Source: Spizellomyces punctatus DAOM BR117 (lineage: Eukaryota). From it: a stretch of DNA of 64,000 nt. The position numbers were made by a program, and so were the translations under genes. Location: assembly GCA_000182565.2 (NCBI GenBank), contig KQ257456.1. The stretch is one strand, 5' to 3'. This document shows positions 25,495 to 62,273 of the stretch, one piece after another. Every line of letters begins with the position of its first letter. The stretch's first letter is position 1. The notes under the pieces are model-generated. The model made no database searches. It was not told the DNA's origin and was given only the letters and a program-made list of their open reading frames with translations.

Positions 25495-27400
25495 CTAACG
25501 CCCATATCCTTCAATATGCAGCAGTACTCGCACGCCTCGTCGGATCCTTCCGGCACGTCCCCACTCTGGATCCATCTCTACATTGCCATCGACGTCCGAA
25601 CCCCCATCCGAGCTCGTCTCAAACCCATCACCCACAACCCGGCCCAGCCTTCCTACCTCATTCCGTATATCGTCCATCAAACCGACAGGCCCACACCCGT
25701 ATACAGAGACAATTTCACCGGGTCGAGTGTCCAGTTGTGAAAATATGCTTGCAACAGAGAGGCGGCGTGTACCCGTTTTCGGGTTGGTAATGACAAGACG
25801 CGGGACGAGAAGGGAAGTAGCACGAGGATGAGCCAAAAGATCTTGGTATAAGGAAAGTTGTGATGCATTGGGAGCTCGACAGGTCCACCAAAAGTGGATC
25901 TTTTGTATTCGTGGTGGAGGATTTTCGAGTATGGAACGCGCAATGGCAAGACCTCCAGGAATGCCGCTTCCACCGACAACAATAAGAACGTGATCAGAGC
26001 GTAGAAATCGTGGTGGGAGGTTACCATGTGGTCCGTCAATGTAAACTTGAATGTTTGGAGTCCCGCTCTCGGGATCAGTGTTTTCTTGCCATGTCCGCAC
26101 AAGCGATTGCGTCCACGAAGCATCGTGCGCCTGCGGTTTGATGATCAAACTCAGTCCAGGTGCAACAGGAGTGGACCTCGCCAACAAATATTCCATCTCA
26201 GGAGGTCCGCCCCTTCGACGTGGAGGAGAGCTGTTTGCGACAGTAAACGGATGCCATTCCACGTTTGAGACGGCTGGTACGCAGATGGAGACCCACTGTC
26301 CGGGGGCAGCAGGAATGTGACAATCTGCGATATCCAATCGCACATATCCGCAATCCTCCATCGTCAATGATGTGACATTATACGCTCGACGTCGATTGAA
26401 CACTCGTACGCATGAATCGATGATATACAATGTCAAAGTCGGCAAAGCATAGTAGAGCATGGGCGAAGCATGCACGAATGACAAAAGGATGGCCCCCAAC
26501 ACCGCGAAATGATTGAACCAGAACCAATTGAACCGTGTTCGGCGGATAGACTCGAACGAATTCAAAGAGACCCAGAGAAAGAGGAGTAGAGCCACGAGTC
26601 CCACCGGCCCCAACCAGCCTCTATACGAAGCGATCCTCTCATGTGACGCTCCAATCAGCAGCGTTGTTTTCCAAAACTGGGCCCATCCGCTTCGAGCGAG
26701 GCAGTAGGCTGCGAATGCACCAACATGCGCCCCAGCCAGTAGCACCGTCAGTGCTCCAGACCATCTATGAAAGGAGAGAGAATGGTCGTATCCGATTCCA
26801 AACAACGTGGATAGCAATCCATTGCGGGATGTCGGCAATAGGGTCAAGGACAGTTGAATGCCGGCATTGAAAGCAATGGCTTTGTAGGTAGCTCGCCACA
26901 TTCGCTGGGTCGGAGAACTTGAAGAAGAGCGGGAATGGTATTGCGTATACCAATAACAAAATTGAAAGAGCTGATGTCCCAGTACCAACAGCCACACGAT
27001 AATCTCTGCATAGGACCACTTTGTTCTGCGAGAGAGGGATATGTAACGATGTTTCCAAGAGTGCCCATGACCCCATGAGGTTCGTTGCGCCAGAGCAAAT
27101 ACGACAGCAACAACCGCAAGCCAACCATAGAATGCGACGAGACTGGACAACCAACGAGTTGTAAACAGTTAGAGAATTGTGTGGGCTGGCACAAATTCAT
27201 TATCTCTCTTACCTGTTACGCATCTCCGTATTCAAGTGCTCCTTCTCTGGACACACTTGTGACCAACACTTGCCCCCTTTAAACATAACATAGGCGGATA
27301 CGAGTAAACTTCCAGGAAGGACCGTCGCCGCTGTGAATATGGCAATGTGCATTGTCTTGAAGCGGAAAGTATCTTTTCTGGAATCTGACGGAGAAGCCAT
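25495..27400 (-). CDS. Ferric reductase / NADPH-oxidase-family transmembrane flavocytochrome
   Basis: Heme His motifs FHRWSG..H and NH..LSFVH, FAD motif EWHPFT, DGPHG, VGGSGIPG, CGP, terminal HIEGY; short first exon 27400-~27213 then an intron. Confidence 0.9.
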
Positions 27401-27453
27401 GACGGCGTCGTTGTCCTCGTTGCCGTCGTCGTCGTCGTTGTGAAATTACGCAT

Positions 27454-27548
27454 GGGCTTGTCGTTCTAGTTCTTAGTGCGGAGCCGATGGGTATTGGCCC
27501 TAGCACCCGCACCAGGGATTGAACCGCGCGACAACCGGTTCGGAAAAC
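27454..27548 (-). ncRNA. Fanzor omegaRNA: ~75-nt scaffold (27548-27474) plus guide from flanking DNA (from 27473, 3' end approximate)
   Basis: Minus strand GUUUUCCGAACCGGUUGUCGCGCGGUUCAAUCCCUGGUGCGGGUGCUAGGGCCAAUACCCAUCGGCUCCGCACUA|AGAACUAGAACGACAAGCCC; lies ~20 nt after the Fanzor stop, spans the element end, has clear stems, and closely resembles the SpuFz1 omegaRNA scaffold as I recall it. Confidence 0.88.
27476..27506 (+). repeat. Terminal inverted repeat, downstream (omegaRNA) end
   Basis: 31-bp imperfect inverted partner of 29603-29633. Confidence 0.92.
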
Positions 27549-27567
27549 CTAATCTAACCAATCTACG

Positions 27568-29469
27568 CTACGCTACCGCTGGAACACCCCTCCTGAACAC
27601 CTCTGGTCTGCCGTGTCCATCCAACATTGATTGCACGATCGTTACCATATTGCAGGTGCTCAGCGTATCTCGATTCCAGTAGCGCATCGTCCAGGCTTGC
27701 TGCAAACAGTTAGGGTTGGTACAACCCAGCAATCCGTGGACTTTTTCAATCTTGCCTTCGCGTCGCCGCCAAGGTCTTGAATGAGGTCGTGTTTTGAAGC
27801 CTTTTTCAACGCCAGAGGAACAGCAAGGGCAAACAGATGAGGTCTTGTACTCGTCGAGAAGGAAGCAGTTGATCCTGTTGCGCTTAAAGAGGGTGCGCCA
27901 GCCTTTCGTCCTTGATGAGGTCTGAAATCTTGCAGTTCGACCGGCGTCGCTCCAATCACCCATCACAACAGTAAAGTTTTCGCCATACTTGTTGCGCATG
28001 TTGCTTATGAGGTCCGATTCACTTCGCTGCCGATTGATGAAAGAGTGCCACTTCCACCGCGTGTGGGCAGGATGTGAGTAGAACTCCTTTCGACGATCCG
28101 AATCTGCATGATGGCGAACAAGAAGGTAGCGAGTAAAGTCCATGAGGTTCATCGTCTTGTGAGATGGTATTCGTGATTCTATGAGGTCAACTCCAGCTTC
28201 TTTCTTCATTGCTTCTCGTCTCTTTGCAAATCGCCGGCTGCCTGTCTCCATGGCTCGCTGGTTTGCGGTGTAGCGAAACGCTGTACCATTGCTGTCTTGG
28301 CAGTAGAGAATGTCACGCTTGTTTGGGTCGATAACAATGACATTCTCTGCTGCTCGACAAGCAGGTAAGTTTTTCTCCACATAAAGCGCTTTAACCTCTG
28401 CCTCCATCGTGTTTGCTGACTTTTTTCCTCCGCTGCGCTTTCCATACTTGTCTGCTTCTGGGTGCTTTAGGTATACAGACACCGAGGTTCCGTCCGTCGT
28501 GATCGAGCCTTCAAAACACATTCCATGACGAGATCTAAAAGCCTTGTTCTGCAGATTACAGACGCGCAACCATAAATCGACGTTTTCAACAGTTTCCGCT
28601 TCTCGTCGCGTGATGCAAAGAACGTGAGAGTAGAGGATGACGGTGTCGATCCGCACATGGCTTTGGATGAGAGAGCGGCGCAGAGGTATTGCGCTGAACT
28701 GTCGGAATCCATGCTGTTCATATAGGCTTGACAACTGACAATAAGCAGGGAAGAAGGCGAGAGGGTCTACAGCAACTGAATATGCGAGCAGCTGGTCGGA
28801 AAGGGGAATGAAGGACCACATCTCTTCTAGAAGCTCACTCTCTTCAGCGGTCAAGTCATCGAGTGACTCAGGCACGATATCAAAAAGGAAAATTGACTTC
28901 AAGTAGCGAAGACGAGCAAAGAAAGCGTTTCGCGCATCGCTTTTCAGTGGCAGTCGCTGCTTCTGTCCCTTCACATCAAGCCGCAGATTAATGTACCGGA
29001 GCAGCATCATCATGAAGTGTTCCTGGACATTGACCTTCAGATTCGTCATCATACTCGCTGTCAGATAATTGACTGATTGCTGCTCTTTTTGTAGATTTGG
29101 ATGAACGAAGCCGACGATGTTGCAGTACCGTTGGATGTATGGCAACAAGGATTCGCGTAACGCCTTCTTCGCACCGGTTTTTGGTTGCCATGATTCACCT
29201 TTGTTGAGAAGATAGAGGATGGCTTCAATCGTCTCTTGATTTACTGTGGGAAAAACTGGCGCTGATGATGAAAGGAGATAGAATTTCAGCGCGTGGGAAG
29301 CGTGGTCGGCGAGTTGATGGATGATGGCGATGTAATCTAAAAGCCGTTGGCAGTAGATGTCGTTTGGCAGGAAAGCTTTTGCAAAGGAAGTCTTGTTGCA
29401 GGTATGTAAGCAAGTAGGTTTGTCGAGTTTTTCGAGTCTTTCGAGCTTTTGCTTCTTCTTTGGTGGCAT
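27568..29469 (-). CDS. Fz1: Fanzor1 RNA-guided DNA endonuclease (TnpB/Cas12-related RuvC), SpuFz1-like, 633 aa
   Basis: Intronless ORF; N-terminal NLS-like PPKKKQK; SITTDGTSVSV; RuvC-I VIDPNKRD (D381); VVMGDWS; RuvC-II LLDEYKTS (E540); Zn ligands CPCC..CTNPNC; RuvC-III WNRD (D601); very similar to Spizellomyces punctatus Fz1 as recalled. Confidence 0.96.
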   Translation of the reverse strand: MPPKKKQKLERLEKLDKPTCLHTCNKTSFAKAFLPNDIYCQRLLDYIAIIHQLADHASHALKFYLLSSSAPVFPTVNQETIEAILYLLNKGESWQPKTGAKKALRESLLPYIQRYCNIVGFVHPNLQKEQQSVNYLTASMMTNLKVNVQEHFMMMLLRYINLRLDVKGQKQRLPLKSDARNAFFARLRYLKSIFLFDIVPESLDDLTAEESELLEEMWSFIPLSDQLLAYSVAVDPLAFFPAYCQLSSLYEQHGFRQFSAIPLRRSLIQSHVRIDTVILYSHVLCITRREAETVENVDLWLRVCNLQNKAFRSRHGMCFEGSITTDGTSVSVYLKHPEADKYGKRSGGKKSANTMEAEVKALYVEKNLPACRAAENVIVIDPNKRDILYCQDSNGTAFRYTANQRAMETGSRRFAKRREAMKKEAGVDLIESRIPSHKTMNLMDFTRYLLVRHHADSDRRKEFYSHPAHTRWKWHSFINRQRSESDLISNMRNKYGENFTVVMGDWSDAGRTARFQTSSRTKGWRTLFKRNRINCFLLDEYKTSSVCPCCSSGVEKGFKTRPHSRPWRRREGKIEKVHGLLGCTNPNCLQQAWTMRYWNRDTLSTCNMVTIVQSMLDGHGRPEVFRRGVPAVA

Positions 29470-29521
29470 GATGATATCTGTATCTGTGGAAAAGATGAAA
29501 GCCTGGGAAAATGGACGATGA

Positions 29522-29529
29522 CTTATATA
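29522..29529 (-). promoter_or_regulatory. Candidate TATA box for the Fanzor mRNA
   Basis: TATATAAG on the minus strand ~53-60 nt upstream of the Fanzor ATG, inside the element; CCAAT motif further upstream (~29587-29591). Confidence 0.4.
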
Positions 29530-29602
29530 GGATTTTTTGGATCAAACCATAGTTCATGAGTCTAAATCGAGTAAAATTATGATTAAATTGGTTAGAATCT
29601 TT

Positions 29603-29633
29603 GTACTAGTGCCAATACCCATCGGCTCCGCAT
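29603..29633 (-). repeat. Terminal inverted repeat, upstream end
   Basis: 31-bp imperfect inverted partner of 27476-27506. Confidence 0.92.
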
Positions 29634-29637
29634 TATG
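29634..29637 (-). other. Target-adjacent motif 5'-CATA abutting the element's upstream end
   Basis: Plus-strand tatg at 29634-29637 reads CATA on the minus strand immediately before the TIR; CATA is the reported SpuFz1 TAM. Confidence 0.88.
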
Positions 29638-29991
29638 TCCGCATTGTCATCGATCTCCATCATTCCGGTGTCGGAATCACAATCCAGGAAGGCTTACAAA
29701 ATCATTTCAGCTTATCCGATTGGATGAATTCCCCGCGATGAGATTGCACGTGCATCGGTCTCGTGATATCACGCGGCCGTCAGTTCGGCTCTCTGGGTGA
29801 AGCCTCCAACACCATCGGGGATCTCCACCCATTGCATTTCATTGCTGTTCATCTCCAGCGTGCCTTTTTTGCTCGTCTTGATACGTCTTTTATGACCAGA
29901 ATAATCAAATGAATGTATTATGATAATATGGGGCCTAAATTTTACATCTGCAAACTATTATGACTCGCCAACGTCTGTTTTTCTAAACCCA

Positions 29992-61499: not shown

Positions 61500-62273
61500 A
61501 TGCTTTCATTCTCTCTCCTTCCTTGTCTTTGCACTATACAGTACCTTTTGATTCCACTGCTTCTTTCCTGAAAGGAAGCAAGCATCAATTTCACATCCAT
61601 CAAAAAGGTCGGATAAGGATTCAGCACAATGTCTTGCCGGAAGTGAGCTGTCACTGGGGACCAACGGATCGTTTCCGTCTAAAATATATTGTCTTAGTGC
61701 CTGATTTGTATAAGGATAGTAGCATTCCTAGTTGCCCAACTACTGTGATTTCCTTCGTTGGGCAGCCAAGCTGCTATGGAAGAGAAGAGACTGTACTCTG
61801 CCTGAATGCATCTGTCAGTAGCGTGCTTCGATGGTTGGCGAGAGGATTTTGCTGTGTAGAATTCACTAGCATATCTGCAGACAGCAAATACGCCCCATTG
61901 AGATGAAGAACAAATTAGGTACTGTCAACATCTAGGACGACCATTAGATAGCTCAAGAAGAACTTGATAACCTTTGGAGGGTGAACGTGTGTGCTAGAAT
62001 CACTGCTTTCTAGTTTTCAACTTCTGGCCTCTTCAGTGTGCTTCCCATTCAGCCATATGAACTGTGTCAATCCCGCAACCACTGTATATTTTTTTCCAGC
62101 TTTCACCATGTTGAGAGATTGCGAGTACATGTCTTTTTGCTCGACCAGCACTATGCTCGACTGGAGCCATTTGCGAAAGCGCCAAAATGATAGTCTTGAA
62201 TTTACATTGTTTTTTTGGAGGTCCAGTCCACCAGACCAAGACTAGAGAGGAATCGAACCTCTATGGTACGATC

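What the first reader, a model, noticed from the sequence alone, without database searches (positions are those of the whole stretch)
27454..29637. Complete eukaryotic RNA-guided nuclease system: Fanzor1 + omegaRNA + TAM in an intact element
Seen: an intronless 633-aa ORF among intron-rich genes, with all three RuvC acidic residues (D381 in VIDPNKRD, E540 in LLDEYKTS, D601 in WNRD), a Zn-binding CPCC/CTNPNC, an NLS-like PPKKKQK start, a structured ~75-nt RNA just after the stop, and CATA directly outside the upstream end. Known: Fanzors are eukaryotic TnpB descendants, and SpuFz1 cuts dsDNA next to 5'-CATA using an omegaRNA from the element's 3' end. From memory this copy is close to, but not identical with, published SpuFz1 (slightly shorter, many substitutions). 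Inference: it may be an uncharacterised natural variant or ortholog usable for genome editing.
Basis: partly seen in the sequence, partly recalled or inferred. Interest (0 to 1): 0.92.

Follow-up and report, generated by a model that had tools for sequence, protein, structure and literature searches.

The report
Known Fanzor1 transposon copy, Spizellomyces
This is an intact copy of the already published SPu-1 element of the soil fungus Spizellomyces punctatus, carrying a sister gene (85% identical) of the RNA-guided DNA cutter SpuFz1 with its guide RNA, so it is real but not new.

Summary
A 633-aa uninterrupted ORF (27568-29469, minus strand) lies inside a 2.16-kb element with 33-nt inverted repeats. 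It has CA+TA (CATA) at the 5' end and a 75-nt omegaRNA scaffold (27548-27474) at the 3' end.

The protein matches the solved SpuFz1 structure (8GKH) at E=0, with 538 of 630 aligned residues identical. All four metal-binding residues (D381, N383, E540, D601) and four zinc-finger cysteines are kept. All 18 omegaRNA nucleotides named in Saito 2023 are matched in one register only.

It is not an orthologue from elsewhere. Removing 67 nt (27988-27922) and translating gives exactly the NCBI protein SPPG_09210 of S. punctatus DAOM BR117. That is the genome SpuFz1 came from. The database model carries an unsupported intron that frameshifts away E540, the four zinc-finger cysteines and D601.

Bao & Jurka 2013 described SPu-1 (633-aa protein, 33-bp TIRs, TA, 17 full-length copies). 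Saito 2023 counted 19 full-length Fz loci, with IRs, the CA motif, the omegaRNA and the CATA TAM. So the kind is already known.

Activity of this copy is inferred, not shown. The RNA reads laid here came from sister copies. Interest is low.

The parts
29634..29637 (-). CATA: the conserved CA just outside the 5' inverted repeat, plus the TA that begins the repeat. This is the published SpuFz1 TAM.
   Evidence: One search prints CATA at 29637-29634. Saito 2023 reports CA conserved upstream of the 5' IR and a 5'-CATA TAM.
29603..29635 (-). 5' (left-end) terminal inverted repeat, 33 nt
   Evidence: pair I1, 91% complementary; the core occurs twice, 0 expected.
29523..29529 (-). TATA-like motif about 55 nt upstream of the ATG. 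A possible Pol II promoter inside the element (inference only).
   Evidence: Read by eye. Not tested.
27568..29469 (-). Fanzor1 ORF, 633 aa plus stop. A paralogue of SpuFz1 and the unspliced reading of locus SPPG_09210.
   Evidence: 8GKH, E=0, 1217.6 bits; 538 of 630 identical; model pLDDT 82.5; TM 0.82-0.89 to four SpuFz chains.
27922..27988 (-). 67-nt GT..AG stretch that the database gene model treats as an intron. Removing it shifts the frame after residue 494.
   Evidence: the spliced translation equals P0007 (SPPG_09210, 580 aa) exactly. The stretch encodes part of a RuvC core strand (E499-505 in the model).
27474..27548 (-). omegaRNA scaffold, 75 nt: stem-loop 1, a 6-nt linker and stem 2. 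Its last 33 nt are the 3' inverted repeat.
   Evidence: 18 of 18 nucleotides named in Saito 2023 section 10 match in this register, against 2-6 of 18 in ten shifted registers; the fold boundaries are 8-28, 29-34 and 35-75.
27474..27506 (-). 3' (right-end) terminal inverted repeat, 33 nt, ending in TA
27459..27473 (-). Predicted 15-nt guide, read through from the scaffold into flanking DNA
   Evidence: Position inferred from Saito 2023 (scaffold plus a 14-15-nt variable extension). It is unique in the window at up to 2 mismatches.
27515..27525 (-). B-box-like 11-mer within stem 1 and the linker of the scaffold. Noted only, and probably chance.
   Evidence: 2 matches in the window against 0.54 expected. 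The other match is not a tRNA.

Best explanation
The stretch 27474-29637 is one full-length copy of the SPu-1 ('Spu-1') transposable element of Spizellomyces punctatus DAOM BR117, at locus SPPG_09210. Its single intronless gene encodes a Fanzor1 RNA-guided DNA endonuclease 85% identical to the characterised SpuFz1.

Proposed working, by analogy with SpuFz1. The 3' end of the element is transcribed into a 75-nt scaffold (27548-27474) that runs about 15 nt into the flank (27473-27459), and that flank segment serves as the guide. The protein binds this omegaRNA. It reads 5'-CATA on double-stranded DNA through its REC and WED domains, pairs the guide with the target, and cuts with the RuvC site (D381, E540, D601, with N383).

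The element is bounded by CA-TA on the left and TA on the right. A site without the element would therefore read CATA followed directly by the guide-matching flank. That is exactly the target this copy's own RNA would specify, which fits the TnpB-like 'cut the empty site, get copied back in' logic.

Shown here: an intact ORF, conserved catalytic, zinc, RNA-contact and TAM-contact residues, the scaffold sequence and its register, the inverted repeats, the CATA motif, and identity with the named locus. Inferred: expression, RNP formation and cleavage by this copy, and the homing role.
For: Protein homology; phmmer against the PDB gives 8GKH (SpuFz1) at E=0 and 1217.6 bits over residues 2-633, and PpFz1 at 2.5e-45.

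Residue mapping; 538 of 630 aligned columns are identical to P0002, which is SpuFz1 (638 aa; all 48 residues named in Saito 2023 fit its numbering). In this copy the metal ligands are kept in 4 of 4, TAM contacts in 5 of 6, omegaRNA contacts in 21 of 25 and heteroduplex contacts in 12 of 13; the four zinc cysteines are present, and only 6 substitutions are private to this copy, none at a named functional residue.

Fold; the AlphaFold model has pLDDT 82.5 and pTM 0.73. The best PDB matches are four SpuFz chains (TM 0.82-0.89), then PpFz, GtFz, Cas12f and TnpB.

Element ends; 33-nt inverted repeats, with the core found twice against 0 expected.

Scaffold. CATA at 29637-29634 and TA at 27475-27474. 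18 of 18 published omegaRNA nucleotides match in register 0, against 2-6 in shifted registers; the fold boundaries coincide with the published stem 1, linker A29-C34 and stem 2.

Identity of the locus; the window equals SPPG_09210 of DAOM BR117.

Literature. describe this element family, its copy number, omegaRNA and TAM.

Metagenome relatives; relatives with 49-55% protein identity keep a hairpin right after a UCC motif. 4 of 5 of its pairs change on both sides (only 4 sequences, so weak). One internally deleted relative (L008) has the same CA-TA left end and ...ACTA right end.
Against: There is no locus-specific RNA evidence. In the one RNA run with raw reads (X9, about 6% of it read), 949 reads were laid and 922 fitted only in part. 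All 36 of 36 reads covering 27499 carry A where this locus has C. 124 reads diverge from the locus just upstream of the scaffold. So the pile over the scaffold comes from sister or ghost copies. Depth over the body of the ORF was below 1.

Named functional residues are no better conserved (42 of 48, 87.5%) than the protein overall (85.4%).

One TAM contact is changed: SpuFz1 R96 is K97 here. It is R in 16 of the 18 sequences that have a residue at that column, and K only here and in SPPG_02771. Two private substitutions (R127Q, G128K) sit next to the TAM-reading glutamines.

The fold energy of the scaffold is only modestly better than shuffles (z -2.10).

No transposase lies within the repeats, so how the element moves is unknown. 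Saito 2023 says the same.
Confidence: 0.85

Rival explanations
1. A silent or crippled copy. The ORF is intact by recency of duplication, but the copy is not expressed, or the protein is weakened by its substitutions, so the locus is a relic rather than a working system.
For: No read could be assigned to this locus over the scaffold, and ORF depth was below 1. One TAM contact (R96 to K97) is changed. Four of 25 RNA contacts are changed or deleted: R550 to C, M607 to T, K483 to R, and S598 deleted. Bao & Jurka found only 9 of 17 full-length copies with intact ORFs, so decay is common in this family.
Against: No stop or frameshift occurs in 633 codons. All metal ligands and zinc cysteines are kept. 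The S598 deletion, C549 and T602 are shared with other paralogues and with distant relatives. Only 6 substitutions are private. The inverted repeats and scaffold are intact. The RNA sample read was small and its mapping ambiguous, so silence is not shown.
Confidence: 0.2
2. The database gene model is right. A 67-nt intron (27988-27922) is spliced out and the product is a 580-aa protein without RuvC-II/III and without the zinc finger, so it is not a nuclease.
For: The stretch has canonical GT..AG ends, and the NCBI model SPPG_09210 uses it.
Against: 67 nt is not a multiple of 3. After splicing, the tail is an out-of-frame reading with no similarity to any Fanzor. The removed codons encode residues conserved in SpuFz1 and in relatives ('VVMGDW' was one of the two conserved peptide patterns), and they form a RuvC core strand in the model. 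The unspliced frame stays open for 139 more codons and aligns to the end of SpuFz1. No joint was seen in the reads, but depth there was only 0.1-0.7, so this was not a test.
Confidence: 0.03
3. An orthologue or strain variant from another Spizellomyces or another chytrid, and therefore a new natural source.
For: The exact 633-aa protein is not in the 15-billion-protein collection, and the best full-length hits are only 81-86% identical.
Against: The absence is explained by the mis-spliced model. The window, spliced as in the model, gives SPPG_09210 of DAOM BR117 letter for letter over 580 aa, including an 86-aa out-of-frame tail.
Confidence: 0.02

Closest known systems
SpuFz1 (SPPG_07727; PDB 8GKH, 9CEU-9CEZ), Saito et al. 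2023 and Xu et al. 2024
   Same: Same genome and same element family. 538 of 630 residues are identical, and the D/N/E/D metal site and zinc finger are the same. The 75-nt omegaRNA scaffold is identical at all 18 published positions. CA-TA sits at the left end and the inverted repeats are of the same kind.
   Different: 633 aa rather than 638. One TAM contact differs (R96 to K97), and there are two private changes beside the TAM-reading glutamines. CPCC replaces CPRC. An SG and an SEF-region indel are shared with other paralogues. The guide differs because the flank differs. This copy has not been assayed individually as far as I could see.
SPu-1 element and SPu-1-1p, the prototype Fanzor1 of Bao & Jurka 2013 (PMC3627910)
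   Same: A 633-aa single-ORF protein, an element of about 2.1 kb, 33-bp terminal inverted repeats and TA at both ends. All are as found here.
   Different: Their protein comes from a family consensus of copies about 92% identical to it.
TnpB with omegaRNA (reRNA) of IS200/IS605, e.g. ISDra2
   Same: A RuvC nuclease with a zinc finger. The guide RNA is encoded at the right end and extends into the flank. The TAM sits at the left-end junction, and the logic of targeting the empty site is the same. Fold matches to TnpB and Cas12f are weak but significant (8H1J E=1e-3, 8IAZ E=9.6e-5).
   Different: No TnpA lies in the element. The ends are terminal inverted repeats rather than subterminal hairpins. 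The REC lobe is much larger. According to a figure legend in Saito 2023 the omegaRNA has no pseudoknot. The host is a eukaryote and the N-terminus is basic.
PpFz1 and GtFz1 (PDB 9CF0, 9CER)
   Same: The Fanzor1 fold (TMq 0.76 and 0.66). PpFz1 is also found by sequence search at E=2.5e-45.
   Different: 15-20% identity. Different TAMs and omegaRNA lengths are reported.

Membership tests
Fanzor1 (SpuFz1 / SPu-1 family) | Full-length sequence homology to a characterised Fanzor1 | tested here: met
   8GKH at E=0 over residues 2-633; 538 of 630 identical; 17 of the 32 hits are S. punctatus DAOM BR117 proteins.
Fanzor1 (SpuFz1 / SPu-1 family) | RuvC metal-binding residues (SpuFz1 D383, N385, E541, D606) | tested here: met
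   D381, N383, E540 and D601, 4 of 4.
Fanzor1 (SpuFz1 / SPu-1 family) | Zinc finger (CXXC ... CXXXXC) in the NUC/TNB domain | tested here: met
   C547, C550, C583 and C588 are present and aligned with those of SpuFz1.
Fanzor1 (SpuFz1 / SPu-1 family) | Bilobed REC/WED/RuvC/NUC fold | tested here: met
   pLDDT 82.5. TM 0.82-0.89 to 9CEY, 9CEU, 8GKH and 9CEZ. This is a prediction, and at about 82% identity to solved structures the match was expected.
Fanzor1 (SpuFz1 / SPu-1 family) | [quoted passage not shown] | tested here: met
   18 of 18 published nucleotides match in one register only; the stem, linker and stem boundaries are as published.
Fanzor1 (SpuFz1 / SPu-1 family) | 30-33-nt terminal inverted repeats with CA (CATA) at the left end | tested here: met
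Fanzor1 (SpuFz1 / SPu-1 family) | The omegaRNA of this locus is expressed and bound by the protein | tested here: inconclusive
   the reads over the scaffold carry a sister-copy letter at 27499 (36 of 36), and none could be assigned to this locus.
Fanzor1 (SpuFz1 / SPu-1 family) | Guide- and TAM-dependent dsDNA cleavage | not testable with these tools
   This needs a biochemical assay.
Fanzor1 (SpuFz1 / SPu-1 family) | Match to a curated family HMM | tested here: inconclusive
   no Pfam hit for this protein; none for SpuFz1 itself either, so the held library is blind to the family. In one search, 31 of 32 homologues carry a precomputed PF26935.1.
IS200/IS605 TnpB OMEGA element | Associated TnpA (Y1) transposase and subterminal hairpin ends | tested here: not met
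   the only long ORF inside the repeats is the Fanzor gene; the others are overlapping alternative frames of 84-110 aa; the ends are inverted repeats.
Tc1/mariner-like TA-targeting DNA transposon (non-autonomous) | TA at both ends, terminal inverted repeats, and a DDE transposase | tested here: inconclusive
   TA at both ends and TIRs are met. No transposase is in the element. A partner acting in trans was not sought, because no genome is held.
tRNA-derived / SINE-like Pol III unit | A box and B box at tRNA-like spacing, and a tRNA-like fold | tested here: inconclusive
   There is a B-box match at 27525-27515, but the window holds 2 matches against 0.54 expected. The A-box likeness was judged only by eye. 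ARAGORN and Rfam find nothing. The motif is not conserved in position in L004, L006 or L008.

The most novel reading that the evidence does not exclude
The omegaRNA may be its own small Pol III gene rather than a by-product of the Fanzor mRNA. A perfect B-box 11-mer sits in stem 1 and the linker (27525-27515). An A-box-like stretch begins at the stop codon (27570), 45 nt upstream of the B box, which is the tRNA spacing.

If this is real, guide RNAs could be made without the nuclease gene. That would explain how the 134 ORF-less 'ghost' elements are expressed, and would make them SINE-like. The consensus motifs are recalled from memory and come from no call.

A second, tamer possibility is that K97 together with the private Q127 and K128 changes shifts or relaxes TAM reading in this copy.
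Probability: 0.06. Interest if true: 0.5.

Novelty: already known. Interest (0 to 1): 0.13.

Why it matters
It mostly serves as a positive control for the scan.

Scientifically the locus adds little, because the element family, its copies in this genome, the omegaRNA, the TAM and the structure are all published.

Two modest practical points remain:
- The public gene model SPPG_09210 is mis-spliced and hides an intact nuclease. In addition, 10 of the 17 annotated S. punctatus paralogue models lack at least one catalytic column. Protein-database mining, such as homologue sets used for engineering SpuFz1, therefore under-samples natural full-length variants.
- This copy offers natural variation at the TAM-reading surface (K97, Q127, K128) that could be tried in engineering.

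Tried and rejected
Whole-genome search of the window's own assembly: no genome is held. Paralogue DNA, ghost loci and any transposase acting in trans could therefore not be examined.

Rfam: no match in the region at E<=1, and none in the whole window at gathering scores.

ARAGORN: no tRNA in the region or in the window.

Pfam: only a chance-level hit (E=0.19) for this protein. The published SpuFz1 also gets none, so this negative says nothing.

Exact-sequence look-up: the 633-aa protein is not in the collection. The mis-spliced model explains this.

Sequencing runs: no RNA holder was listed.

Laying four runs:
- X10 and X11 laid nothing.
- X1 laid two 151-nt contigs without differences on 28786-28933 and 29021-29171. 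Its kind is only a guess, so this is not evidence of expression.
- X9 reads could not be assigned to this locus.
- No joints were listed, but depth over the supposed intron was 0.1-0.7, so splicing was not tested.

Other copies in the window: blastn of the element against the rest of the window found only one 24-nt hit at E=0.033. tblastn found only E=0.75.

Inverted repeats around the metagenome relatives L002, L003, L004 and L006: none convincing. Only L008 has them.

Multiple alignment of five downstream regions: stem 1 was mis-registered, so I used a shorter four-sequence alignment instead. L002 was dropped from that count because its hairpin lacks the UCC lead and the conserved loop.

Earlier findings of this scan: none for this genome.

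Paper searches:
- 'Fanzor' with 'polymerase III': judging from the titles and abstract beginnings in the listing (none of these papers was opened), none concerns native omegaRNA transcription.
- The locus tags SPPG_09210 and SPPG_07727: 0 papers.
- The 2026 SpuFz1 engineering paper (passages) does not mention paralogues.

Supplementary data of Saito 2023 and the additional files of Bao & Jurka 2013 list the individual loci and sequences. They were closed, so I cannot say whether this copy is one of the four loci with native small-RNA evidence.

Full report
THE OBSERVATION

On the minus strand, 27568..29469 is an uninterrupted ORF of 633 codons starting MPPKKKQK. It lies inside a pair of 33-nt inverted repeats, 27474-27506 and 29603-29635, which are 91% complementary. 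Their 20-nt core occurs exactly twice in the 64-kb window, where 100 shuffles gave none. Base composition is unremarkable: GC is 0.47-0.51 around the locus and 0.44-0.51 across the window.

Just outside the 5' repeat stands CA. The repeat itself begins with TA, so 29637-29634 reads CATA, and the 3' repeat ends with TA at 27475-27474. Only the CA half of CATA is outside the repeat. The structured RNA starts 19 nt after the stop codon, not at it.

WHAT THE PROTEIN IS

A sequence search of all PDB chains returns the SpuFz1 cryo-EM entry 8GKH at E=0 (1217.6 bits, residues 2-633), and Parasitella Fanzor1 at 2.5e-45.

The large protein search returned 32 relatives, 17 of them labelled Spizellomyces punctatus DAOM BR117. 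One of these, P0002 (SPPG_07727, 638 aa), is the published SpuFz1. All 48 residues that Saito et al. 2023 name by number in their structure section (read in full) are found at those numbers in P0002.

Against P0002 the window's protein is identical in 538 of 630 aligned columns. It keeps:
- 4 of 4 metal ligands (D381, N383, E540, D601);
- 5 of 6 TAM contacts (R96 becomes K97);
- 21 of 25 omegaRNA contacts;
- 12 of 13 heteroduplex contacts.

That total of 42 of 48 is not better than the overall identity. The four zinc cysteines are in place.

Most departures are shared with other paralogues or with distant relatives: the two-residue SG gap before the catalytic helix, C549 and T602. Only six substitutions are private to this copy. 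None is at a named functional residue, although R127Q and G128K sit beside the TAM-reading glutamines.

K97 is shared only with SPPG_02771. The other 16 of the 18 sequences with a residue at that column have R.

An AlphaFold model built on a 13-sequence alignment has mean pLDDT 82.5 and pTM 0.73. It superposes on four SpuFz chains at TM 0.82-0.89, then on PpFz, GtFz, Cas12f and TnpB. With about 82% identity to solved structures this outcome was expected.

WHERE THE WINDOW COMES FROM

The exact 633-aa sequence is not in the 15-billion-protein collection. However, P0007 (SPPG_09210, 580 aa, DAOM BR117) is identical over residues 1-494 and then runs into another frame.

I removed 27988-27922 from the window and translated the result. 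That stretch is 67 nt with GT..AG ends. The translation reproduces P0007 letter for letter, all 580 residues, including the 86-aa out-of-frame tail.

So the window is that genome, which is the source of SpuFz1, and the locus is SPPG_09210. The database model's intron is not a multiple of three. It removes a conserved RuvC core strand, and after it the frame loses E540, the four zinc-finger cysteines and D601. The unspliced frame stays open and aligns to the end of SpuFz1. I read the intron as an annotation error.

Of the 17 annotated paralogue models, 10 lack at least one of the four catalytic columns. Only 4 are both longer than 600 aa and complete. For the others I cannot tell a bad model from real decay without the DNA.

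THE RNA

Saito 2023 section 10 names 18 scaffold nucleotides by position: U5, C6, C7, U16-G20, G22, A29, C32, C34, U35, G37, C40, G70, A72 and A75. Numbering the window from 27548 downwards, 18 of 18 match. Ten shifted registers give 2-6 matches.

The minimum-energy fold of these 75 nt is stem-loop 1 at 8-28, a linker at 29-34 and stem 2 at 35-75. These are the published boundaries. The energy is only modestly better than shuffles (z -2.10; 10 of 200 as good). By the paper's description (scaffold plus 14-15 variable nt), the guide is 27473-27459. It has no other match in the window with two or fewer mismatches.

Rfam has no family for it.

As outside support, a scan of metagenome contigs gave 10 related loci. 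In three of them (L004, L006, L008; 49-55% protein identity), a hairpin with a conserved loop follows a UCC motif just after the stop codon. On a four-sequence alignment, 4 of 5 stem pairs change on both sides and 80% of cells pair, and the covariation score is reached by 10 of 500 shuffles. With four sequences, and one of them shifted by one base, this is suggestive only. L002 and L003 were left out of that count.

L008 is an internally deleted element. It retains the last roughly 147 codons, the RNA region and 26-nt inverted repeats. Its left end is again CA-TA and its right end again ...ACTA.

EXPRESSION

No run is on record as an RNA holder of this stretch. I laid four runs, and only X9, with raw RNA reads, was informative.

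About 6% of X9 was read. 949 reads were laid, and 922 fitted only partly. Reads pile on 27468-27551 and on 29316-29651. However, all 36 reads covering 27499 carry A where the locus has C, and 124 reads diverge just upstream of the scaffold. At 29594, 121 of 129 reads differ from the locus.

These reads therefore come from sister or ghost copies that share the element ends. Depth over the body of the ORF was below 1, and over the supposed intron it was 0.1-0.7. Neither expression of this copy nor splicing could be tested.

HOW IT MOST LIKELY WORKS

By its near-identity to SpuFz1 in protein, scaffold and ends, the copy should form an RNP that reads 5'-CATA and a 15-nt guide, and cuts dsDNA with the RuvC site.

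The element sits between CA-TA and TA. A chromosome lacking it would therefore present CATA followed at once by the guide-matching flank. This is the TnpB-style arrangement in which the element's own RNA targets the empty site.

No transposase lies inside the repeats. Saito 2023 found none in any Spu-1 element, and Bao & Jurka 2013 read the TA as a target-site duplication.

Expression, binding, cleavage and homing are inferences for this copy.

COMPARISON WITH WHAT IS KNOWN, AND NOVELTY

Bao & Jurka 2013 (passages read) introduced Fanzor with exactly this family. They described SPu-1 as about 2,100 bp, with a single ORF, a 633-aa protein, 33-bp TIRs, putative TA duplications, and 17 full-length copies of which nine have intact ORFs.

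Saito 2023 (passages and section 10 read) reported the following for DAOM BR117:
- 42 Fz loci, 19 of them full-length, plus 134 ORF-less ghost loci;
- about 82% identity among the proteins;
- 30-nt IRs with CA upstream;
- an 88-90-nt RNA in four loci;
- the CATA TAM, the structure, and editing in human cells.

Xu 2024 (passages) added the conformational states.

The locus is therefore a member of a described set in a described genome, and I file it as already known. I could not see the supplementary lists, so I cannot confirm that this very copy is on them or whether it was one of the four loci with native RNA. Its locus tag appears in no paper of the searchable library.

OTHER THINGS SEEN

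The scaffold contains a perfect match to the Pol III B-box consensus (recalled, from no call) at 27525-27515. An A-box-like stretch starts at the stop codon, 45 nt upstream of the B box. However, the window holds a second such B-box match that is no tRNA, with 0.54 matches expected by chance. ARAGORN and Rfam see nothing tRNA-like. The motif is not at a conserved position in the relatives. I keep it as a long shot.

The 8 bases that follow the TA at the start of the 5' repeat are also found once more, 4 nt upstream of the CATA (print).

The element's right end lies about 74 nt upstream of the likely start codon of a ferric-reductase-like gene, and a GDPD-family gene lies on the other side.

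Noticed in passing
window 27922-27988 (-): The NCBI gene model SPPG_09210 (580 aa) splices out a 67-nt GT..AG stretch. This frameshifts the protein after residue 494 and loses E540, the four zinc-finger cysteines and D601. The unspliced 633-aa frame is the one that matches SpuFz1 end to end.
   Followed up: yes
proteins P0002-P0021: Of the 17 annotated S. punctatus DAOM BR117 Fanzor paralogue models, 10 lack at least one of the four catalytic columns. Only 4 are both longer than 600 aa and complete. Saito 2023 counts 19 full-length loci, so several other models may be mis-spliced like this one.
   Followed up: partly
window 27515-27525 and 27558-27570 (-): A perfect B-box-like 11-mer sits in the omegaRNA scaffold, and an A-box-like stretch starts at the stop codon, 45 nt upstream of the B box (tRNA-like spacing). 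A second B-box match at 62249-62259 is not a tRNA, and 0.54 matches are expected by chance, so this may be coincidence.
   Followed up: partly
window 29638-29645 and 29627-29634 (-): The 8 bases that follow the TA at the start of the 5' inverted repeat are repeated directly, 4 nt upstream of the CATA in the flank. This could be a footprint of an earlier end, or chance; my rough estimate is about 3 in 10,000 for an adjacent 8-mer.
   Followed up: no
L008 1469-2035: A metagenome contig holds an internally deleted relative. It has 26-nt inverted repeats and only the last roughly 147 codons of the Fanzor gene (52% identical), with the RNA region intact. Its left end is CA-TA and its right end ...ACTA. 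It resembles the 'ghost' elements described for S. punctatus.
   Followed up: partly
window 29316-29587 (+): In RNA run X9, reads whose first mate lies on the plus strand (antisense to the Fanzor gene if the first mate is sense) pile up here. 17 reads continue into poly(A) after 29587. This may be an antisense polyadenylated RNA over the 5' end of the element, possibly coming from sister or ghost copies.
   Followed up: no
window 27398-27474 (-): The element's right end and predicted guide lie about 74 nt upstream of the likely ATG (27400) of a ferric-reductase-like gene (Pfam Ferric_reduct, FAD_binding_8, NAD_binding_6). That places them in its promoter or 5' UTR. The start codon and first intron of that gene were read by eye only.
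   Followed up: partly
P0001 residues 97, 127, 128: The TAM-reading surface carries K97, where all but one other family member have R, plus two private changes (R127Q, G128K) next to the TAM-contacting glutamines. The copy's own flank still reads CATA.
   Followed up: partly
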